From IMG/VR virus record IMGVR_UViG_2609459800_000001: a stretch of DNA of 64,000 bases; one strand, written 5' to 3'. Below, piece after piece: positions 12,722-21,295 of this stretch (positions are counted from its first letter, which is position 1; each line of letters opens with the position of its first letter). Source of the stretch: a virus (taxonomy: Duplodnaviria > Heunggongvirae > Uroviricota > Caudoviricetes). The notes beneath the pieces are model-generated. The model ran no database searches, was not told the DNA's origin, and saw only the letters and a program-made list of their open reading frames with translations. Made by a program: the position numbers and the translations under genes.

Positions 12722-13237
12722 ATGGCGTTAACACACCGCGAACTCTGTCAGATTGCGTACAAGTTCCTTAAGCGCAACGGGTTCAAGGTTTGTTTTCATG
12801 ACCGCTTTATAGCTGTAACCAGTACCGGAGAACAGCCAGATGCTATGGGATTCAGAAATTCAGCATCATGCCTGATAGAGGCGAAGTGTTCTCGTGCTGA
12901 CTTGTTAGCAGATAGAAAAAAGCGTTTCCGTAAAAATCCGTCTCTTGGAATGGGCGACTGGCGATTCTTTATTAGTGAGCCGGGAATTATTTCAATTGAG
13001 GATTTACCACCTGGCTGGGGATTACTTCACGTTGTTAACGGAAGAGTACGGAAAGTACATGGATGGCCCAAGGGGAATTGCTGTTGGGGTAACCCTGAAG
13101 ATAAACCTTTTATTGGGAATAAGCAGGTTGAATGCGATTACATGTTATCTGCATTAAGGCGCATGGAGTTGAGAGGGCACCTTAATGAAATATATGACGG
13201 TGTAATTGTTAATAAGAAAGAAGGAAACGCGGCATGA
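12722..13237 (+). CDS. hypothetical protein, possible PD-(D/E)xK nuclease fold
   Basis: ATG overlapping upstream stop; D...EAK-like motif (DAMGF...IEAKCSRAD). Confidence 0.45.
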   Translation: MALTHRELCQIAYKFLKRNGFKVCFHDRFIAVTSTGEQPDAMGFRNSASCLIEAKCSRADLLADRKKRFRKNPSLGMGDWRFFISEPGIISIEDLPPGWGLLHVVNGRVRKVHGWPKGNCCWGNPEDKPFIGNKQVECDYMLSALRRMELRGHLNEIYDGVIVNKKEGNAA

Positions 13238-13620
13238 TCACTATTACCAAAGAGCGACTGCTGACAATCAAGCAGTGGCGCGAAACATACGGACCTGGTA
13301 GCAACGTTGTACTGCCAGCAGAAGAAGCGGAAGAACTGGCACGAATTGCTCTGGCATCACTGGAAGCAAAACCAATAGGTGCATTCCACATTGCAGAACA
13401 GCAAGTTGACGGCACAAGTGACCACCTCAAGGATGGAGAATGGCCTATTGATAATGGAATTATTGAGGTCTACGCCACTCCCCCCGTTCCAGTAGTACCG
13501 GAAGAAAAACCAATGCCTAATCCTCTTAGCATGTACGCGGTCGATGCTGTTGCCGCTATTGCAGAGGTGAGAGGCTGGAACGCCTGCCGTGCCGCTATGC
13601 TTCAGGGGAAAGGAGAGTGA
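13234..13620 (+). CDS. hypothetical protein, short paralog of the 13830 gene
   Basis: Shares LASLEA and GWNACRAAMLQ motifs with ORF 13830-15029. Confidence 0.5.
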   Translation: MITITKERLLTIKQWRETYGPGSNVVLPAEEAEELARIALASLEAKPIGAFHIAEQQVDGTSDHLKDGEWPIDNGIIEVYATPPVPVVPEEKPMPNPLSMYAVDAVAAIAEVRGWNACRAAMLQGKGE

Positions 13621-13621
13621 T

Positions 13622-13819
13622 ATGGACAAAAACACACCTGCTTACTGGAGTTTATCACTTGATACTGAATGCCCAAAATGCGGCCACAATTTCGATCTGC
13701 TTTGTGATGCTGATTTCTGGGAATTTTCTGGAGCAAAACAGGCATGTGAAGAAATAAAAGGTTACGAAACATGCTGCCCAGAATGTAACCATGAATTTAA
13801 AACAGATTTTGTGTATTGA
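13622..13819 (+). CDS. zinc-ribbon protein (65 aa)
   Basis: CPKCG...CCPEC paired Cys motifs. Confidence 0.5.
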   Translation: MDKNTPAYWSLSLDTECPKCGHNFDLLCDADFWEFSGAKQACEEIKGYETCCPECNHEFKTDFVY

Positions 13820-13829
13820 GGCATAACGA

Positions 13830-15029
13830 ATGACCACTTTTACTAAAGAACAATTAATAGAGATAATTAAGCGCAATATAACGGTTATGGATCGTTATCC
13901 TGATTTAGTAACTGCACAAATGGATCTGGAAGTATACAAAATCGCGCTGGCATCACTGGAAGCAGAACCAGTTGCTTATATTTTCAAACATCCGGCCGGG
14001 AAATTATTCTGGGCTTTAACGGATGAAAGCAATAAAGAGCAACCGGACGTTATTCCTGTTTATGCTGACTCACCTGCGCCGGTTGTGCCGGATGAAATAG
14101 ACGTAAACGATGTACCAAGGGCGGTGACATATTTCAAGACACACAGAGATTGTTACGCAGATGGCTGGAACGCCTGCCGCGCCGCCATGCTTCAGTCCGG
14201 AAACTTTCGGGAAAACAAGAATTCGTCAACCAATAATTTTCGGGAAATCGCGGAAACGTCAACCAACTATCCGGTAATTCCTAGTGAGGTGTTGTCCGCA
14301 ATCCTGAAGGTTGCCAAGATTCGTGCCGATTTCGATGATTTTGACGGTGACAGGCGAGGTATCGGTGATTGTCTGGATGAGGCTGAGCAAGAGCTTATCG
14401 TTACCATTAACAAATATGCCAGTCAGTTGGCAGCAGAACCGATAGCGACTAATGACGTTCGAGAGCAAACAGCCGTTCCGCCAGTTCCTGTAATACAGGC
14501 TGATGTCGCGCAGGCAATTGAAAAACTCAAACGGAAATTAGTGGAATGCAATCGCTATAACTACTGTGCAGATGCAGTTAAAGGCGTAGAGGATGCCTGC
14601 CGTGCTGTTAGCTATAGCCAAGCCGACAATCAGCCAGCATCTGGCAACCAGGCTGCCGAATCCAATCGCGATAATGAGTGGACTGGCAATCCTGATATTG
14701 ATAACGCCATCATCATGCTCGACCGCATAGATACGCTGGAAAATTGCGATGATGACCGTATTGAGGCTGTTAAGGCTGTTTTGCGTAGACTGGCTGGCAA
14801 CTATCCGGTAACTCCGGATGGTTGGATAAGCTGTAGTGAGCGAATGCCGGATACCAAAACAGCCGTTCTTGTTGCCGTGGAGTTTGACAGGAAAGGTGAC
14901 TGGCGAATGAAATGGGCGACTTACATCCCGGGGCATCCTGACGCTAATGATGGGTGGATAATTCCTGGTGCGTCGTGGAAACCGTCACACTGGATGCCGC
15001 TACCAGAACCGCCGCAGGAGGCAAAATGA
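13830..15029 (+). CDS. DUF551-like domain protein (399 aa)
   Basis: C-terminal W...HWMPLPEPP motif typical of DUF551; N-terminus paralogous to 13234 ORF. Confidence 0.6.
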   Translation: MTTFTKEQLIEIIKRNITVMDRYPDLVTAQMDLEVYKIALASLEAEPVAYIFKHPAGKLFWALTDESNKEQPDVIPVYADSPAPVVPDEIDVNDVPRAVTYFKTHRDCYADGWNACRAAMLQSGNFRENKNSSTNNFREIAETSTNYPVIPSEVLSAILKVAKIRADFDDFDGDRRGIGDCLDEAEQELIVTINKYASQLAAEPIATNDVREQTAVPPVPVIQADVAQAIEKLKRKLVECNRYNYCADAVKGVEDACRAVSYSQADNQPASGNQAAESNRDNEWTGNPDIDNAIIMLDRIDTLENCDDDRIEAVKAVLRRLAGNYPVTPDGWISCSERMPDTKTAVLVAVEFDRKGDWRMKWATYIPGHPDANDGWIIPGASWKPSHWMPLPEPPQEAK

Positions 15030-15286
15030 TGGATGTCAAAGAGAAGATTTTGCAGGTGATGCGTTCCCGTGCAGCCCTGCAAGAGAAAGTTCTCGGCGGG
15101 GAATATCCATTCAGGATGGCAACCTGGAGTCTGCGGTTGGCAATGGAGAAGGAATTTCCTGATGAAGAATGGCGTTCGGCAGATTTGCGCAAAATTCTTA
15201 TGGAGATGGCTAAAGACGGAACAGTATCCAAAGATACCTATGCCAGCCGGATTGGTCAGGCGGTATGGAGACTGGAGGTGAGGTAA
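15026..15286 (+). CDS. hypothetical protein (86 aa)
   Basis: ATG overlapping upstream stop. Confidence 0.45.
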   Translation: MMDVKEKILQVMRSRAALQEKVLGGEYPFRMATWSLRLAMEKEFPDEEWRSADLRKILMEMAKDGTVSKDTYASRIGQAVWRLEVR

Positions 15287-15369
15287 TGAGCTGGCCTGAA
15301 GCATTCACCACGGTAGGAATCGCAATGGCGGTAGCACTGGTTTTGTATTCAATTTGTCGCTGGGGATAA
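15286..15369 (+). CDS. possible 27-aa hydrophobic peptide
   Basis: TAATG coupling to upstream gene; single predicted TM stretch. Confidence 0.25.
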   Translation: MSWPEAFTTVGIAMAVALVLYSICRWG

Positions 15370-15371
15370 CG

Positions 15372-15605
15372 ATGGGAAAAATAACTTTTGTAGTCGAATT
15401 TGAGGATGGCAAAGAGCCACCTGTTAGCGCCAATCTTGATGTTGCTGGTGGCAGGCTTGTTTCGGTTCTATTTGGTGACTACCGAGATGATTTCTTCCAA
15501 CCAGAAGAAGTTGATGTGGTGCGAGAGGCATTAAACGAGTTAAGTGTTGATAACGATGATGCTCATGCGGAAATCATCCAAAAAATGGAACTGCTAACTC
15601 ACTAA
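15372..15605 (+). CDS. small acidic hypothetical protein (77 aa)
   Basis: ORF. Confidence 0.45.
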   Translation: MGKITFVVEFEDGKEPPVSANLDVAGGRLVSVLFGDYRDDFFQPEEVDVVREALNELSVDNDDAHAEIIQKMELLTH

Positions 15606-15653
15606 ATTATCAATTATGGTGCTATCACCTACGACACCGAGAGAAAATTTATA

Positions 15654-15776
15654 ATGTCAAAAGTAAATGTTTTGATTTTTTCAGCAATTGTTGGCTTTGG
15701 TTTTACTGCCGGAGTGCAGATTTATATTACGTGGGGAAAAATCATCAACTACGCATGGAGTTGTTTTATTAAGTGA
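15654..15776 (+). CDS. possible 40-aa small membrane protein
   Basis: ATG 15654; hydrophobic core LIFSAIVGFGFTAGV; AT-rich. Confidence 0.3.
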   Translation: MSKVNVLIFSAIVGFGFTAGVQIYITWGKIINYAWSCFIK

Positions 15777-15783
15777 GGTAAGT

Positions 15784-16077
15784 ATGTGGAGAGGTAATAA
15801 TCATGGCAAAAGCCAGATGATACTTACCGAATATAAGCTAGACCACAAAACCAATAAATCACGCTCAGTATATTTGCTCCGGCACAATAGCCGTGTAAGA
15901 AATACCGTGTTGGAACAAAATCTGACAGTTGAAATGGATAATTACGGGGGATTCAAGCCAACAATTTCGCTTGATGATTTTCCTCGTGGTTTAAGCGAAA
16001 GAGAAGCAATGCTGAAATTAGCAGAATGGCTACAAAGATTAAGCATTGCTATTGAAGATAACTGGTCTGAACCTTAA
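15784..16077 (+). CDS. hypothetical protein (97 aa), AT-rich
   Basis: ATG 5 nt after GAGG. Confidence 0.45.
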   Translation: MWRGNNHGKSQMILTEYKLDHKTNKSRSVYLLRHNSRVRNTVLEQNLTVEMDNYGGFKPTISLDDFPRGLSEREAMLKLAEWLQRLSIAIEDNWSEP

Positions 16078-16083
16078 ATTAAT

Positions 16084-16458
16084 ATGATGACACTAAAACA
16101 TTTTCTTGACCGCCCATTATGGGCGGCAGCCGCAGGCTATGACTTTAATTATATGGATTGCATGTCTTATGCTGCCAATGCATACGACCATTCGTTCAGC
16201 CTGCTGTTTAATTCTTTAAGAATATTGCCGGAAACGGAAGTTGGAGAGCTTCATTTATGGATATTGGGCTTTATCGCGGCTGTCGTTGGTATTGCTGTAT
16301 GGCCTTTTATTTTCTGGCTGGTGGCTGTTGTAGTGTGGTTTAAGTGCAAGACATACCGGAGAAAGTATTTCTTAGGTGATGGAATGACTGATATTGCCAA
16401 AATGAACATTGAAAAATGGACTAAGGAATGTGAAAAGAAATGGCGCAAAAAGAAATGA
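16084..16458 (+). CDS. membrane protein (124 aa) with basic C-terminus
   Basis: TM segment ILGFIAAVVGIAVWPFIFWLVAVVVWF; AT-rich. Confidence 0.5.
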   Translation: MMTLKHFLDRPLWAAAAGYDFNYMDCMSYAANAYDHSFSLLFNSLRILPETEVGELHLWILGFIAAVVGIAVWPFIFWLVAVVVWFKCKTYRRKYFLGDGMTDIAKMNIEKWTKECEKKWRKKK

Positions 16459-17120
16459 CTACTCTAACGACAGCATACTTACAGCAATTGGTATTTTTTG
16501 CAGGGGAGGCTACTTGTCATCCTGACGCAAACTATTTATTGGAATTTGAGAGGTTAGCGTCACCCGGTATCGTTCTGGAACTGGCCCAACAGGTGCTGAC
16601 ATTGAGACAAAAAGAGCAACTTGGAAGTGATGCTTACAAGTTAGATTTTGAGCAATGGCTTGAACAGCAACGCGGGAAAATAGATGTGGACTGTGGTTGT
16701 GTGTCCACTGAAACATTCATGCACTGGCTGCGGGTAGCTTACGAGGCTGGCAACTATCCGGATATTCCGGATAGTTCGGTGCCAGCGCCAGGAAAGGGAG
16801 TCACCGGTGAACGTATCCGCATTAAGCCGCATGTTTATCGCGAACTGGTTAACCGCCTCCACGATACAGCGATCAAGTGTGCTGGCACCCAGCAATTACG
16901 AGAAAGAATTAGCCGTGTTTTGGGCGACGTTATTACGCCAGATCATCATAAACAAGCCGAGAAAAGTGACCTGGAAAGGTGTCACCTTGAGGCGGCATTA
17001 AACATTAAGCCGGGGCATACGCTTGGCATTATCGATGCTCTGTTGGTTCATAAGATGGCCAGGGCTTTATTGCCGCTGGTGGCTGATAAGCATGAGGCGG
17101 GCCATGCCAACGAAAGCTGA
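16440..17120 (+). CDS. hypothetical protein (226 aa)
   Basis: ORF. Confidence 0.5.
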   Translation: MAQKEMTTLTTAYLQQLVFFAGEATCHPDANYLLEFERLASPGIVLELAQQVLTLRQKEQLGSDAYKLDFEQWLEQQRGKIDVDCGCVSTETFMHWLRVAYEAGNYPDIPDSSVPAPGKGVTGERIRIKPHVYRELVNRLHDTAIKCAGTQQLRERISRVLGDVITPDHHKQAEKSDLERCHLEAALNIKPGHTLGIIDALLVHKMARALLPLVADKHEAGHANES

Positions 17121-17385
17121 GTTACAGGCGCGCATAGAGATTCTTGAAAAAGAGAATGCGAGTCTAAAAGGAATGCTGGCGCGGGCGGAAAGGGAATTAT
17201 CAGGCAAATTATTGCCAGAAGAACTGCCACCAGCAGATATACCAGATCGAGTGTCCCGGTGGATGAAGTCTTTTGGTTTGCCGTGGGAGGCTTTTTGGTG
17301 CTACGAGCATCGCAGATGGTGTGATGAACTTGATAGCAGTTTTCCCTACTTTGCGGAAGGGAATACTTGCCCTGAGTTGTATTAG
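17104..17385 (+). CDS. small coiled-coil protein (93 aa)
   Basis: ATG overlapping upstream gene end. Confidence 0.45.
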   Translation: MPTKAELQARIEILEKENASLKGMLARAERELSGKLLPEELPPADIPDRVSRWMKSFGLPWEAFWCYEHRRWCDELDSSFPYFAEGNTCPELY

Positions 17386-17403
17386 CTCAGATTTAACCTG
17401 ACA
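17381..17403. repeat. left 23-bp inverted repeat bounding the AT-rich cassette
   Basis: ATTAGCTCAGATTTAACCTGACA; reverse complement of 19556-19578 at 20/23. Confidence 0.45.
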
Positions 17404-17990
17404 CAGCTACGGCACAGTTCTAAACCTAATCTGACAGGCCGCTTTGTGCCAAAAGCGGGCATTGGGCGTTGTGGTAAATGCCTGATAATTTCTTCTTTTA
17501 CTAGCACAAGCCGCTGGATAATTGCCATGTTTCCAGCTTAAGTAAATCAAGAACAACTCGCGTACTGGCTGTATAAAGTTTGCCGGACGCAAATTTATTG
17601 ATTTCAGAAAAACCTGTTGAAATAGAGGTATATCAGCGTTAGTTTGATGTGAGTAAAGATCAGGAAAGAAGGTAGAAAAATGTTCCACTTGCGGGCAAAA
17701 AATCCTTCTATTAAATTGTTAAGGCTTTATGAAGATCGTACATTACGAATCGAATTCACCATGGGTAGGGAACATGAAATGTCCAAACCCTAAGTGCAGG
17801 AGGAATGACTCCTGCTTGATTCGGGATAGGTTGTACTCGCATGAAGTATGTATTGGCTCTAAACCCAAATACTGGTGGCGTTTGGTCACAAATACCTTAA
17901 CAAGTTTAGGTATGGGACGCTCCTAACGTCGCGCCCCTGCTAAAAGCGTTAGCTGTTCTCTAGCCTTCAACCAGATAAGGAAATAATCGT

Positions 17991-19421
17991 ATGAGTTCAG
18001 AATTGATTGCAAAACCTGGAACAGGGGTACTTTCCACAGATACAACAAAATTTGAAGGATATTTATCCTATCTTGGTTTGCCGACCGAAAATATAATTGC
18101 CTCTCTCCCTGAGCGCCAAATTATTGAAAAAAACCTCCCCACATTCATAGATTCTTTACCTGTTGAGGTAAAAAGAGATGCTCGATATTTATCAAAGTTC
18201 GTTGCTGGTGCGGCTATAGGACTATTTGATGCATCGTTAAATTATGTTTGGAATGAAGTTGTACTGAATTTAAGGGAAAAAGTAGTAGTTTATGGCCTCG
18301 ATATGTTCTTTGATGCTGCAGTTGGAGGAGGACGTAGAGAGCTTTATTCTACCGAAGAAGATCTTTCTGGTTTAAAAGACAACACCCTTATTAATACTTG
18401 CCGAAAACTTGAATTAATATCTGACGTTGTTTACACCAAGCTCAATCATATATTGACTATGAGGAATGACATTGGTGCTTCGCACCCAAATTCATACTCC
18501 ATAAATGCTTTTGAACTTCTTGGCTGGCTCCAAACATGCGTTCAAGATATTTTGAACGACAAACCGTCCGCGTCTGCCATACAAATAAAATCATTCCTTG
18601 AGAATCTAAAAAGATCCACTGATGTTCTTGATGAAGCCACAATTCATAGCATGGAAAGACCTTTGAATGATCTGTCGCTTCAGAATACAGACAATCTACT
18701 CAATAGTATTTTCGGCATATATACAGCTGACTCAACAGGAAATGTTGTCAGAAAAAATATCGCTCTTTTTGCTCCGCATATCTGGAATAAAAGCAGTGAT
18801 AACGTAAAATACAAGCTCGGTGTGACGCTAGACGGATACAAGAACAATCTTCACAACGAGAAACATGCTTTAGGTATTGAGTTTTTTACGTTTTGTGATG
18901 GTAATCGTTATCAATCATTAGACTCTAGAATTATATCACTGGACGGCCATGCCGACGATCTCTTAGAGGCTAGGTATGCTTGGGATAACTTTTATAATGA
19001 ACCCCCTCATATGCGGAAGATTCTTTCGTATTTAAAGACTGAAAATGACATACCTTTAGAGAGGGTTCATAAGCTTATAAAAACAGTTTTGATTTGCCGT
19101 GTTGGTAAAGGAATACCATATAATACTGGTGTTTCTCCGGCGGGACGACCTTTGTATGATCAGTTTTTTGGCATGCTTGGCGATCAAAACATTATCAATA
19201 CAGTTATAGCAATGCACTCTAATGAAGTGCGAGTGAATTTAGACAACAAATACTGCCAGCAACATATGGTAAGCGTTTTGACTTTGTTAAGAGCCAATGC
19301 TCGTAGCGAAAGAATTCAAGAAATTATAGATTTTTTGATCGCCAACCAAACGATTCTCCATAAAGTACACAACGATAAGAGATATAGAGATCTAACTAAA
19401 AATCACATCAGTTTTGGCTAA
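17991..19421 (+). CDS. 476-aa protein with Rx6H (HEPN-like) motif; candidate abortive-infection/defence effector
   Basis: R158-NDIGAS-H165; AT-rich coding; RBS AGGAAA upstream; ~600-bp ORF-free leader. Confidence 0.55.
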   Translation: MSSELIAKPGTGVLSTDTTKFEGYLSYLGLPTENIIASLPERQIIEKNLPTFIDSLPVEVKRDARYLSKFVAGAAIGLFDASLNYVWNEVVLNLREKVVVYGLDMFFDAAVGGGRRELYSTEEDLSGLKDNTLINTCRKLELISDVVYTKLNHILTMRNDIGASHPNSYSINAFELLGWLQTCVQDILNDKPSASAIQIKSFLENLKRSTDVLDEATIHSMERPLNDLSLQNTDNLLNSIFGIYTADSTGNVVRKNIALFAPHIWNKSSDNVKYKLGVTLDGYKNNLHNEKHALGIEFFTFCDGNRYQSLDSRIISLDGHADDLLEARYAWDNFYNEPPHMRKILSYLKTENDIPLERVHKLIKTVLICRVGKGIPYNTGVSPAGRPLYDQFFGMLGDQNIINTVIAMHSNEVRVNLDNKYCQQHMVSVLTLLRANARSERIQEIIDFLIANQTILHKVHNDKRYRDLTKNHISFG

Positions 19422-19555
19422 CAAAGCGCTGCACACGGACTAAATTAAGCTTCGCTCACTGGGGCGGGCGACAGCCCGTCCCTTAACCAAACGTTAATGT
19501 CCGCTTCTCGCTCAAAGCAGACTGTCAGATTTGATTGTGTGCTGCCAGTGAAAAC

Positions 19556-19578
19556 TGTCAGATCAAGTCTGAGCTAAT
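19556..19578. repeat. right 23-bp inverted repeat bounding the AT-rich cassette
   Basis: TGTCAGATCAAGTCTGAGCTAAT. Confidence 0.45.
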
Positions 19579-19603
19579 ACACCTGAGTGTAGGAGGTAGC
19601 GCG

Positions 19604-19864
19604 ATGTTTCGTCCTCGTCCAATACCGCCGAAACTAACTAATGGCTATCAGCCGAATACTCCAGAAATACAAGGGAGCGAGGGGCTTAAACCACCACCAG
19701 CACCACGTATTCCGCCTGTAGCAAGGAACGTATCATTACGACGAGAGTTAATATTAGCCTTGTCGCCCATTCTGGCTGCCCGCCAGGATTGGGTAAGTAA
19801 TGATGAACTGGCAGAAAAAATCACATCGCTGGTGGATAAAATTATGGATAAAGCTGATATCTGA
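19604..19864 (+). CDS. Pro-rich small protein (86 aa)
   Basis: ATG 6 nt after GGAGGT. Confidence 0.45.
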   Translation: MFRPRPIPPKLTNGYQPNTPEIQGSEGLKPPPAPRIPPVARNVSLRRELILALSPILAARQDWVSNDELAEKITSLVDKIMDKADI

Positions 19865-19876
19865 TCACCATGCTAA

Positions 19877-19905
19877 AATCCCCTCAATTCACAGAGGGGA
19901 TTTTT
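19877..19905 (+). terminator. hairpin (possible terminator)
   Basis: AATCCCCTC-aattcaca-GAGGGGATT then TTTTGT. Confidence 0.4.
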
Positions 19906-19909
19906 GTAT

Positions 19910-20176
19910 ATGTTGCATAGAGTTTTATGGAAATGCGGTATTGTCGGCGCGATGCTGGCTATATCTGGGTGTGCGATGGTGCAATACAATGACGGCGAAA
20001 AGGTAAGCATCCAGTCAGATGGCTGGTATGGACTGGATAGTCTGCAAAAAACCGCAGATAAAGCCTGTCAGCAATATGGGAAGTCTAAAGCTGTATATCA
20101 GCATAGCGCGAACGCTAACCCTCATCTTGCGCCCGGTTCGGGTGTTCAGAATACCATCTGGAAATGTGAGCCTTAA
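19910..20176 (+). CDS. lipoprotein (88 aa)
   Basis: Signal peptide with lipobox LAISGC. Confidence 0.55.
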
Positions 20177-20178
20177 AC

Positions 20179-20430
20179 ATGAGCGACTGGAATATTGCAG
20201 CTAAAAGTCAGGAAGAACGGGATAAGGTTAACGTTGATCTGGCTGCCAGCGGTGTGGCGTACAAAGAGCGATTGAACATACCTGTCATAGCGGAACAGGT
20301 GGTCCGCGAGCAACCGGAGAACCTGCGCACCTATTTCATGGAACGGCTACGGCACTACCGACAGTTAAGCCTCCAGTTGCCAAAAGGGAGCGATCCGGTG
20401 TATCAGAAAGAGGATGCGTCAAAAAAATAA
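20179..20430 (+). CDS. hot: DNA polymerase III theta-subunit homolog
   Basis: [33 protein letters not shown] aligns with E. coli HolE. Confidence 0.85.
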
Positions 20431-20437
20431 CGGCAAG

Positions 20438-20806
20438 ATGGGTAAGGTTTTAAACATGCTTAACTATCATGACAATACGCGTTCTATGCAGGCAATCCGC
20501 ACCAATACAGCAGTGGTCGATAGCTTTCCTGTGCATACTCAAGGCCGTGAAGATACCGTGGAAGTGCGACGCATGTTGTGTCGCCGGTCACCAGGCCACC
20601 AGCACTTCATCGTAACGTTTAAAAGCGATGTAGAGCGCGCCGAGAAAATCTCTAACTCCACATCTTTGGTTAAGCCGTTGGCGGAGGTTATTGTGCGCAA
20701 CAATAAGGCGCGCTTTGTCCTTGAGGAGCATCATTCTGATTTTAATGAAAAAATTGAGTCAAGCATTTTGCAATATATGAATGGCAAGTTCACGCCACCA
20801 ATGTGA
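20438..20806 (+). CDS. hypothetical protein at the P1 lxr position
   Basis: ORF between hot and humD; start uncertain (20414/20438/20456). Confidence 0.5.
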   Translation: MGKVLNMLNYHDNTRSMQAIRTNTAVVDSFPVHTQGREDTVEVRRMLCRRSPGHQHFIVTFKSDVERAEKISNSTSLVKPLAEVIVRNNKARFVLEEHHSDFNEKIESSILQYMNGKFTPPM

Positions 20807-20867
20807 TTAGCCCCCAGCGTTGCGCGCCTACAAATCCCGCTTTCACAAACTATGCCTTTTCAATGTA

Positions 20868-20887
20868 TACTGTATGAATAAACAGTA
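20868..20887 (+). promoter_or_regulatory. LexA (SOS) box
   Basis: TACTGTATGAATAAACAGTA, 19 nt upstream of humD start. Confidence 0.7.
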
Positions 20888-20905
20888 TCATTGAGGTAAA
20901 ACGCT

Positions 20906-21295
20906 ATGGGCTTCCCTTCTCCTGCGGCGGATTATGTTGAAAGCCGAATTTCTCTTGATCAGCAACTAATCAGGCATCCATCAGCAACCTACTTCATGCG
21001 GGCAGCTGATAGCCATCACCGTGAGGGAATATTGCAGGGTGCTTTGCTGGTGGTTGATTCCTCGCTTACTCCGGTTGATGATTCTCTGCTTGTGTGCGCT
21101 ATGGAGGGTGAATATCGCATAAAGAGATACCGAAAGTATCCGCGCCAGCACTTGGAGGATTTAAGCACCGGGAAGAAAGAGGCGTTACCAGTAGATGACG
21201 ATGGTTACACGGGTAGTAATGCTGTTTTTGGTGTGATCACTCATGTCATCAATGATGCCAGAAGTGGGGAGTTTGATGATTGTCCGGTTATTTAA
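20906..21295 (+). CDS. humD: UmuD-prime homolog (translesion synthesis accessory)
   Basis: GFPSPAADYVE...HPSATYF matches UmuD core lacking the N-terminal cleavage segment. Confidence 0.85.
   Translation: MGFPSPAADYVESRISLDQQLIRHPSATYFMRAADSHHREGILQGALLVVDSSLTPVDDSLLVCAMEGEYRIKRYRKYPRQHLEDLSTGKKEALPVDDDGYTGSNAVFGVITHVINDARSGEFDDCPVI

What the first reader, a model, noticed from the sequence alone, without database searches (positions are those of the whole stretch)
15654..16458. AT-rich cluster of three small genes, two encoding membrane peptides
A visibly AT-rich stretch encodes a 40-aa hydrophobic peptide (15654-15776), a 97-aa soluble protein with a good RBS (15784-16077) and a 124-aa membrane protein with a Lys/Arg-rich tail (16084-16458). 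A 27-aa hydrophobic micro-ORF (15286-15369) lies just upstream. Small membrane proteins in AT-rich phage morons are typical of superinfection-exclusion, holin-like or toxin functions. None is in the ORF track as a standalone gene below 60 aa.
Basis: seen in the sequence. Interest (0 to 1): 0.45.

Follow-up and report, generated by a model that had tools for sequence, protein, structure and literature searches.

The report
Small accessory genes, P1-like phage-plasmid
Three real but uncharacterised small genes, two of them encoding membrane proteins, sit in a well-known swap-prone cargo region of a P1-like phage-plasmid; they are common, already catalogued as hypothetical proteins, and nothing ties them to a known function.

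Summary
ORFs of 40, 97 and 124 codons lie at the stated coordinates, and their stretch has GC 0.385 against a window mean of 0.481 (lowest 1.3% of equal-sized windows). All three are genuine genes. p97 and p124 show purifying selection (dN/dS-like 0.23 and 0.28). p40 has 40-codon relatives at ~50% identity in lambdoid phages. The 27-codon ORF remains unproven.

The window is a P1-like phage-plasmid. The cluster lies in a ~10-kb replacement of P1's pmgT–upfO segment, a documented hypervariable, low-GC, nonessential region. It sits downstream of an intact C1-repressor operator and promoter and has no promoter or terminator of its own. It is therefore not a classical moron and is probably expressed on derepression, though this was not measured.

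The three genes are independent cassettes, not a system. p97 occurs alone in plasmids and in N15, phiKO2 and lambdoid nin regions; p124 homologs occur without p97; other small ORFs can sit between them.

There is no Pfam, PADLOC, NCBIfam, PDB or fold match. Toxin–antitoxin, holin and type I toxin readings failed their tests. Function is unknown; early-lytic, envelope-directed accessory roles are the best guess. The finding is ordinary and of low interest.

The parts
15654..15776 (+). p40: 40-aa small membrane protein gene (one predicted TM at about residues 5-26, amphipathic C-terminus); an independent cassette
   Evidence: ORF. Full-length match to phrog_5525, E = 4e-23. Intact in 10/10 alleles, dN/dS-like 0.59 on 13 changes. 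40-codon homologs at 47-50% identity with a shared GFG..AG...YI.W...IN.AWS motif in phages EC.W1-9 and phiv142-3. Annotated in SJ46 and in E. albertii p06-3542.
15784..16077 (+). p97: 97-aa soluble protein (four-stranded antiparallel sheet plus a C-terminal helix; basic N-terminal half, acidic C-terminal half); a widely distributed independent cassette
16084..16458 (+). p124: 124-aa membrane protein with a conserved ~55-aa N-domain (KHF..P..A..AGYDFN motif), a ~31-residue hydrophobic segment with a central conserved Pro, and a basic C-terminal helix. It has no SD and starts 6 nt after the p97 stop.
   Evidence: phrog_2638, E = 8e-63. dN/dS-like 0.28. AlphaFold2 pLDDT 68 with one long helix at 55-97. 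Only 39 clusters among 1.84 billion representatives, mostly 100-131 aa, none fused to another domain. The N-terminal conservation is at the protein level.
15286..15369 (+). p27: candidate 27-aa hydrophobic micro-ORF, start overlapping the eaa stop (TAATG) behind a strong SD (GGAGGTGAGG); it travels with the downstream 77-aa gene
   Evidence: Intact in 6/6 alleles but dN/dS-like ~1.07 on 9 changes. Co-occurs with p77 in 56 of 59 loci that have p77. Translation is unproven.
15372..15605 (+). p77: 77-aa acidic soluble protein gene, the neighbouring cassette where the GC decline begins
   Evidence: phrog_3876, E = 5e-53. dN/dS-like 0.11. GC 0.42.
15606..15653 (.). 48-nt spacer before p40, with no promoter, terminator or unusual RNA structure
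   Evidence: folding z-scores 0.30 and 0.06.
9887..9931 (+). C1 repressor operator (OpmgT/Op88 equivalent, 9887-9903) overlapping the sigma-70 promoters P2pmgT/P1pmgT at the head of the operon
   Evidence: The operator 17-mer is identical to P1's, and the region is 99% identical to P1 84266-84506. Function is inferred from the P1 annotation.
10174..20183 (+). ~10-kb hypervariable accessory segment replacing P1 pmgT-upfO. It holds the same-strand array 10082-17385 (PAPS-reductase-like, Ead/Ea22, DUF551, eaa, p27, p77, p40, p97, p124, a pmgT-like 226-aa gene and a 93-aa gene), followed after a ~600-bp gap by an AT-rich 476-aa ORF and two smaller ORFs.
   Evidence: BLAST map to P1. Pfam and PHROG scans. 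Described as 'variable region 8' / RD hotspot in PMC9603915 and PMC6906374.

Best explanation
The three ORFs are genuine, separately mobile single-gene cassettes. They lie in the hypervariable, nonessential pmgT-to-hot cargo region of a P1-like phage-plasmid.

They have no transcription signals of their own. They sit in a ~7-kb same-strand, tightly packed gene array whose only recognisable promoter is the C1-repressible PpmgT. They are therefore most likely silent in the plasmid prophage and made early after induction or infection, possibly also by read-through from upstream C1-controlled and late promoters. p124 probably depends on translational coupling to p97.

p40 and p124 insert into the inner membrane. 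For p124 the acidic N-flank and basic C-flank fit an N-out/C-in single-pass topology or a Pro-kinked hairpin. p97 is a cytoplasmic alpha/beta protein.

Shown here: the genes are real, they are membrane or soluble as described, they assort independently, and they sit in a repressor-headed accessory array.

Inferred, not shown: the timing of expression, and the function. My best guess is that these are nonessential early-lytic functions directed at the host or at competing phages. The two membrane proteins would act at the cell envelope (blocking superinfecting phage or DNA entry, or perturbing an envelope or division factor; about 30% likely). p97 would act as a small protein-binding inhibitor of a host or defence factor (about 25% likely).
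For: - Real genes: PHROG full-length matches; purifying selection and intact alleles; p40 homologs of identical length at ~50% identity; family alignments with conserved motifs; protein-level conservation of the p124 N-terminus.
- Location: window 1-10173 is 98% identical to P1 up to the first ~90 nt of pmgT. Then ~10 kb replaces P1's ~2 kb, and hot follows.
- Operator and promoter are 99% identical to P1.
- No internal promoter or terminator above chance (15 promoter-like sites against 18.3 expected; 10 terminator-like against 9.6). No convincing late-promoter motif near the cluster.
- Region known as hypervariable and low-GC (PMC9603915, PMC6906374). Its P1 counterparts score as nonessential (PMC10695390).
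- Independent assortment: in plasmids, all three genes in about three quarters of records, p97+p124 in ~10%, p97 alone in ~17%, with breakpoints at gene boundaries. Among 80 viral loci, 59 have all three, 18 lack p40, and 3 have a 55-58% p124 homolog without p97. A 52-aa ORF is inserted between p97 and p124 in L081 (the same extra spacing is seen in L083 and L084).
- Homologs elsewhere sit in early, nin or ea regions of N15, phiKO2, mEp235, phiKp_30, a Yersinia phage and Proteus phages.
- Membrane prediction and charge bias.
Against: - Expression timing rests only on homology to P1's annotated operator and promoter and on consensus scans. A weak internal promoter or read-through in lysogens cannot be excluded.
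- No homology, fold match or experiment supports any specific function.
- The p124 model is of low confidence (pLDDT 68), so its topology is uncertain.
- Within P1-like plasmids p124 is almost always next to p97 (77 of 80 loci) and lacks its own SD, which leaves some room for functional linkage.
Confidence: 0.6

Rival explanations
1. p97 and p124 (with or without p40) form a dedicated two- or three-gene system, for example a membrane toxin (p124) with a soluble antitoxin (p97), in the manner of CptA/CptB (YgfX/SdhE), serving addiction or abortive infection.
For: The genes are adjacent, with a 6-nt gap and no SD before p124, which suggests coupling. p124 is next to p97 in 77 of 80 loci. There is a weak Pfam Cpta_toxin hit at E = 0.072. 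In P1-like plasmids p97 is always followed by some small envelope protein.
Against: p97 occurs without p124 in about 17% of plasmids, and in N15, phiKO2 and mEp235 it is followed by soluble proteins. p124 homologs occur without p97 (L088-L090, Yersinia P840, phiKp_30). Another ORF sits between them in L081, and L083 and L084 show the same extra spacing. The Cpta_toxin hit appears in 0 of 32 family members. The p97 fold is a sheet plus helix, not the SdhE helical bundle (the SdhE fold is from my own knowledge). There is no PADLOC hit.
Confidence: 0.1
2. One reading: a lysogeny-expressed moron whose membrane proteins give the lysogen superinfection exclusion.
For: Low GC and presence/absence polymorphism. 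Small membrane proteins. Several known exclusion proteins are small membrane proteins (from my own knowledge).
Against: There is no promoter or terminator of its own. The cluster is embedded in an array headed by a C1 operator, so it should be repressed in lysogens. No similarity to any annotated exclusion family in Pfam, PHROGs or PADLOC. Homologs in other phages lie in early lytic operons. Exclusion exerted during lytic growth, as with T4 Imm, is not excluded and is part of my best explanation.
Confidence: 0.12
3. p124 (and/or p40) is a holin, antiholin or lysis-timing protein.
For: A TM segment followed by a highly basic C-terminus. A PHROG holin family (phrog_20) hit at E = 0.05.
Against: The hit is not significant and covers only the TM and tail. 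The most conserved part of the family is a soluble N-domain, while the basic tail is variable or missing in distant members. No endolysin or spanin gene lies nearby. The location is in an early, repressor-controlled array and in nin or replication regions elsewhere.
Confidence: 0.05
4. p40 (or p27) is a type I toxin regulated by an antisense RNA.
For: A short, very hydrophobic, basic peptide.
Against: No Rfam family at E <= 1 across 9000-21000. No unusual RNA structure on either strand (z = 0.30 and 0.06). No antisense promoter above chance. The lambdoid homologs are translationally coupled to the preceding gene through an overlapping stop/start, inside an operon.
Confidence: 0.04
5. The sub-60-codon ORFs (p40, p27) are not translated and are chance ORFs in spacer DNA.
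For: At close range the dN/dS-like ratios are high (0.59 and 1.07) and rest on few substitutions. The SD of p40 is weak.
Against: For p40: a homolog of the same length with a conserved motif at ~50% identity in unrelated phages, its own PHROG family, and an intact ORF in every allele. For p27: a strong SD and a TAATG overlap with eaa. This junction type is also used by the ASCH cassette in RCS47. There is no independent distant homolog for p27.
Confidence: 0.09

Closest known systems
[quoted passage not shown]
   Same: Same genomic slot between pap and hot, with the same C1 operator and promoter at its head. It holds small genes of unknown function that are nonessential in P1. The region is documented as hypervariable.
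   Different: The gene content is almost entirely different. Only 95-nt and 347-nt islands are shared inside the replaced segment, and p40, p97 and p124 have no counterpart in reference P1.
N15 gp44 / phiKO2 Gp43 / mEp235 gp51 (phrog_1258)
   Same: Homologs of p97 at 43-67% identity, of the same length, in early or nin-type accessory operons.
   Different: They are followed by soluble Ea22-like or HNH proteins rather than by a membrane protein. They are equally uncharacterised.
Lambdoid ea / nin region accessory genes (eaa, Ead/Ea22, DUF551 and others)
   Same: The array around the cluster is built from these same families. p40 homologs follow ea22 or eaa genes in lambdoid phages. Gene-boundary mosaicism is the same.
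   Different: Here they are carried on a P1-type plasmid prophage under a C1 operator rather than under pL or pR.
T4 Imm-type early-expressed small membrane exclusion proteins (functional analogy only, from my own knowledge)
   Same: A small inner-membrane protein made early in lytic growth.
   Different: No sequence or family similarity was detected, and no phenotype is known. This is an analogy, not membership.
CptA (YgfX) membrane toxin, Pfam PF07254
   Same: Similar size, a hydrophobic segment followed by a basic region, and a small soluble gene upstream.
   Different: The match scores 13.7 bits against a gathering cut-off of 27.3 and is not seen in any of 32 family members. The upstream partner has a different fold, and the two genes assort independently.

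Membership tests
PHROG families 5525 / 1258 / 2638 (unknown function) | Full-length significant match to the family profile | tested here: met
   E = 4.1e-23 (1-40/40), 8.4e-50 (1-97/97) and 8.4e-63 (1-120/120).
Phage accessory region / P1-like variable region 8 | Flanked by conserved core genes, with variable gene content among close relatives | tested here: met
   The flanks are 94-99% identical to P1 (pap side and hot/humD side) while the interior is replaced. There are several alternative configurations among plasmids. See also PMC9603915.
Phage accessory region / P1-like variable region 8 | Nonessential for lytic growth | not testable with these tools
   Only indirect evidence: the P1 genes in this slot score as nonessential (PMC10695390), and many P1-like elements lack one or more of the three genes.
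Moron (independent transcription unit inserted in a phage operon; definition from my own knowledge of Hendrix and colleagues) | Own promoter upstream | tested here: not met
   No sigma-70-like site upstream of 15654 or 15784 on the + strand. Site counts are at or below the shuffle expectation.
Moron | Own terminator downstream | tested here: not met
   No terminator-like site between 15600 and 17400 on the + strand, and p124 overlaps the next gene by 19 nt.
Moron | Base composition different from the neighbouring genes; present or absent among relatives | tested here: met
   GC 0.385 against 0.481. Presence/absence polymorphism.
CptA/CptB-type (or any type II) toxin-antitoxin pair | Toxin matches the family model above its threshold | tested here: not met
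   PF07254 scores 13.7 bits against a cut-off of 27.3. 0 of 32 family members match. No PADLOC hit.
CptA/CptB-type (or any type II) toxin-antitoxin pair | Obligate co-occurrence of the two genes | tested here: not met
   p97 occurs alone in plasmids and phages, p124 homologs occur without p97, and an ORF is inserted between them in some loci.
CptA/CptB-type (or any type II) toxin-antitoxin pair | Toxicity of one product neutralised by the other | not testable with these tools
   Needs expression experiments.
Holin | Significant match to a holin family, or a position next to endolysin/spanin genes under late control | tested here: not met
   phrog_20 at E = 0.05 only. No lysis genes are adjacent. 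No late-promoter motif.
Holin | At least one TM segment plus a charged C-terminus | tested here: met
   Hydrophobic segment at 57-87 and a tail of net charge +8. This feature is generic and not sufficient.
Type I toxin-antitoxin | Antisense or overlapping regulatory RNA and a structured toxin mRNA | tested here: not met
   No Rfam match. Folding z-scores of 0.30 and 0.06. No antisense promoter above chance.
Known superinfection-exclusion families (Sim, SieA/B, Imm, Sp, Cor and others) | Sequence or profile similarity to a characterised exclusion protein | tested here: not met
   No such hit in Pfam, PHROGs, NCBIfam or PADLOC.
Known superinfection-exclusion families | Exclusion phenotype | not testable with these tools
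   Needs plating assays.

The most novel reading that the evidence does not exclude
In P1-like plasmids p97 acts as a conserved cytoplasmic partner for an interchangeable downstream envelope effector: p124, a 52/58-aa double-TM protein, or a 69-aa secreted protein. Together they would form a modular, previously undescribed early-lytic system that acts on the cell envelope, for example a new kind of superinfection exclusion or counter-defence. On this reading p124 would represent a new small family (39 clusters) of membrane effectors defined by the KHF..P..A..AGYDFN N-domain and a Pro-kinked hydrophobic segment.
Probability: 0.1. Interest if true: 0.55.

Novelty: already known. Interest (0 to 1): 0.2.

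Why it matters
It matters little as it stands. The genes are catalogued hypothetical proteins, carried by about 6% of complete E. coli genomes on P1-like plasmids, in a cargo hotspot that the literature already describes.

The residual value is as a pointer. The pmgT-hot slot of P1-like phage-plasmids repeatedly collects small envelope-targeted proteins and a widespread soluble protein (p97) that has no Pfam family and no structural relative. Such early accessory genes are where anti-defence, host-takeover and exclusion functions are typically found. A cheap expression and plating screen of these cassettes could therefore assign functions to several PHROG families at once.

Tried and rejected
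1. Family assignment. Pfam, PHROGs, PADLOC and NCBIfam gave only unknown-function PHROGs. Scanning every member of both families against Pfam gave no recurrent hit.
3. PDB sequence-profile searches found nothing.
4. Cys3His metal site in p124 (H6, C26, C88, C116). These are invariant among the enterobacterial members but lost in the Proteus and Morganella homologs and in the wider family. Rejected as a family feature.
5. CptA-like toxin. Rejected.
6. Type I toxin or hidden RNA element. No Rfam hit and no excess RNA structure.
7. Internal sigma-70 promoter, terminator or P1 late promoter. None convincing.
8. Literature. Searches for the RefSeq accessions found nothing. The Silas et al. accessory-gene screen does not mention P1-like, lambdoid or N15 phages.
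9. DNA-level (boundary-sequence) explanation for the conserved p124 N-terminus. Rejected, because 9-13 of the 30 codons differ synonymously.

Full report
**Observation.** The stretch 15606-16458 has GC 0.385 against 0.481 for the window. Only 1.3% of equal-sized windows are lower. Hydropathy maxima (19-residue Kyte-Doolittle) are 1.83 for p40, 2.60 for p124, 2.09 for p27 and 0.21 for p97. The p124 C-terminal 37 residues carry a net charge of +8. p97 has a good SD (GTGAGGT). p124 has none and starts 6 nt after the p97 stop. p27 starts at a TAATG overlap with eaa, behind GGAGGTGAGG.

**Are they genes?** All three match PHROG families of unknown function over their full length: phrog_5525, 1258 and 2638, with E = 4e-23, 8e-50 and 8e-63. 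I compared 80 related loci from IMG/VR, less the three most divergent (L088-L090), together with three reference records. p97 and p124 show third-position-biased variation, dN/dS-like ratios of 0.23 and 0.28, and intact ORFs in 29/29 and 28/29 alleles. p40 is intact in 10/10 alleles, but its ratio (0.59) rests on only 13 changes. The stronger evidence is that lambdoid phages EC.W1-9 and phiv142-3 carry an ORF of exactly 40 codons at 47-50% identity with a shared motif, annotated there as a gene and coupled to the preceding ea22/eaa gene. p27 is intact in 6/6 alleles, but its ratio is ~1.07 on 9 changes. It remains a candidate only.

**What the replicon is and where the cluster sits.** The window is a P1-like (IncY-type) phage-plasmid, closest to pSBF45b, SJ46 and RCS47. 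Window 1-10173 is 98% identical to P1 74407-84579, which runs through pap and the first ~90 nt of pmgT. Window 10174-20183 replaces P1's ~2 kb pmgT-upfO segment with ~10 kb, sharing only 95-nt and 347-nt islands. After that, hot, humD, phd/doc and the pac genes resume. The C1 operator OpmgT (9887-9903) is identical to P1's, and the promoter region is 99% identical.

From 10082 to 17385 all genes are on the + strand and tightly packed. They include a PAPS-reductase-like gene, Ead/Ea22, DUF551 and eaa, a lambdoid 'ea-region' repertoire. Promoter-like and terminator-like sites are at or below the shuffle expectation, and none flanks the cluster. No P1 late-promoter motif is convincing, and no Rfam family matches. 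[quoted passage not shown] The P1 genes that occupy it score as nonessential (PMC10695390).

**Are the three genes a unit?** No.
- Among PLSDB plasmids, 309 records match. An evenly spaced sample of 60 shows about three quarters with all three genes, ~10% with p97+p124 only, ~17% with p97 alone, and one with p40+p97. The breakpoints fall at gene boundaries.
- 309 of 5426 complete E. coli genomes carry the region, with 314 of 318 copies on plasmids.
- Among 80 viral loci selected for p124, 59 have all three genes, 18 lack p40, and the three 55-58% homologs lack p97.
- Three loci (L081, L083, L084) have ~230 extra bases between p97 and p124; in L081 this holds a 52-aa double-TM ORF.
- In other plasmids p97 is followed by a 58-aa double-TM protein or a 69-aa signal-peptide protein.
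- Outside P1-like elements, p97 homologs (43-67% identity) are N15 gp44, phiKO2 Gp43 and mEp235 gp51 in the nin region, followed by soluble proteins.
- p124 homologs (30-42% identity) lie in early, nin or replication regions of a Yersinia phage, Klebsiella phiKp_30, Proteus Gorganvirus phages and Morganella Henu15.

Each gene is therefore an independently shuffled cassette.

**What the proteins look like.** p97 folds confidently (pLDDT 86) into a four-stranded antiparallel sheet packed by a 24-residue C-terminal helix. It has a basic N-terminal half (+5) and an acidic, highly conserved C-terminal half (L-x2-FP-x2-LS-x-RE-x-MLKL-x2-WL). No solved structure resembles it. BFVD returns one uncharacterised homolog, and PDB and Pfam profile searches are empty.

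p124 is modelled with low confidence (pLDDT 68) as a helical N-domain, one long helix at 55-97 and a C-terminal helix. An exhaustive profile search found only 39 clusters among 1.84 billion representatives, mostly 100-131 aa and none fused to another domain. The family-wide conserved features are F7, P11, A14, G18-Y19 and D25, a D-x2-V-R-E-L-P stretch before the hydrophobic segment, and a central Pro in that segment. The basic tail is variable. The acidic N-flank and basic C-flank fit an N-out/C-in topology under the positive-inside rule (established knowledge), but a Pro-kinked hairpin cannot be excluded. A tempting Cys3His site is not conserved across the family.

**Mechanism.** Nothing tested here assigns a function. 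The anatomy does support a setting: accessory cassettes in a repressor-headed early operon, paralleled by homologs in the early, ea and nin regions of other temperate phages. These are zones that in well-studied phages hold nonessential host-takeover, anti-defence and exclusion genes. That last point is my own knowledge, and the accessory-region concept is described in the Silas et al. preprint.

I therefore commit to the following. The genes are silent in the prophage and expressed on derepression. p40 and p124 act at the inner membrane, either excluding competitors or perturbing an envelope or division factor (about 30%). p97 acts as a small inhibitor of a host or defence protein (about 25%). 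The steps shown are gene reality, predicted localisation, independence and genomic setting. The steps inferred are timing and function.

**Rivals.**
- Toxin-antitoxin pair, p124 with p97. Contradicted by independent assortment, the non-reproducible sub-threshold CptA hit, and the p97 fold.
- Lysogeny-expressed moron. Lacks a promoter and terminator and sits behind a C1 operator.
- Holin. Rests only on a generic TM-plus-basic-tail shape and an E = 0.05 hit.
- Type I toxin for p40. No RNA partner or structure, and the homologs are translationally coupled inside operons.
- Non-translation. Unlikely for p40, open for p27.

**Verdict.** This is a correct observation of an ordinary feature: catalogued, uncharacterised accessory genes in a known cargo hotspot of P1-like phage-plasmids. 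The interest is low. The only mildly notable points are the repeated presence of small envelope-targeted cassettes in this slot and the absence of any structural relative for the widespread p97.

Noticed in passing
window 17991-19421 (+): A second AT-rich block (GC ~0.38) encodes a 476-aa protein that matches only phrog_27609 (unknown function), with no Pfam or PADLOC hit. It is separated from the upstream operon by ~600 bp, so it may be its own transcription unit and a candidate cargo or defence gene.
   Followed up: partly
window 9986-10072 (+): A 28-codon hydrophobic ORF (MNTAFKIIMAAIYFWLFSITFGGIVAHG) with a strong SD (AGGAG) lies between the C1-controlled promoter and the first gene of the operon. 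It is 100% identical in reference P1, where no gene is annotated.
   Followed up: partly
window 9931-9963: A perfect-looking 15-bp GC-rich hairpin sits between PpmgT/OpmgT and the first gene. The scan scores it as a terminator on the minus strand. Its role (5'-UTR structure or antisense terminator) is unknown.
   Followed up: no
window 10664-11542 (+): A PAPS-reductase-like protein (Pfam PF01507; PADLOC SspD E = 1e-13, weak DndC/BrxP; phrog_424) lies in the accessory array. It could be a DNA-modification-related cargo gene.
   Followed up: partly
L081 2760-2918; L095 2272-2448; L094 2125-2334; L081 2002-2454: In other P1-like elements the slot after p97 holds alternative small envelope proteins: a 52/58-aa double-TM protein or a 69-aa Cys-rich protein with a signal peptide. 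In L081 a 150-aa Ala/Thr-rich secreted-looking protein sits upstream of p97. The hotspot seems enriched in envelope-targeted products.
   Followed up: partly
window 13589-13819 (+): A 76-aa protein with two CxxC pairs (zinc-ribbon-like; a weak Rad50 zinc-hook hit at E = 8e-4) within the array.
   Followed up: no
Proteus phages VB_PmiS-Isfahan, PM-CJR, 2207-N35, RS10pmA (hits H84-H90, H101-H105): These related Proteus phages each carry both a p97-like and a p124-like gene (30-40% identity), but ~6 kb apart and on opposite strands. This is co-occurrence without adjacency in one phage lineage.
   Followed up: partly
window 16400-16458 / junction with 16440-17120: The last ~15 codons of p124 overlap the next gene and differ between elements, and tblastn coverage stops at residue 109 in the annotated phage-record hits (SJ46, RCS47, vB_EcoM-813R1 and the P1-named isolates). 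This suggests that recombination breakpoints fall inside the p124 3' end.
   Followed up: no
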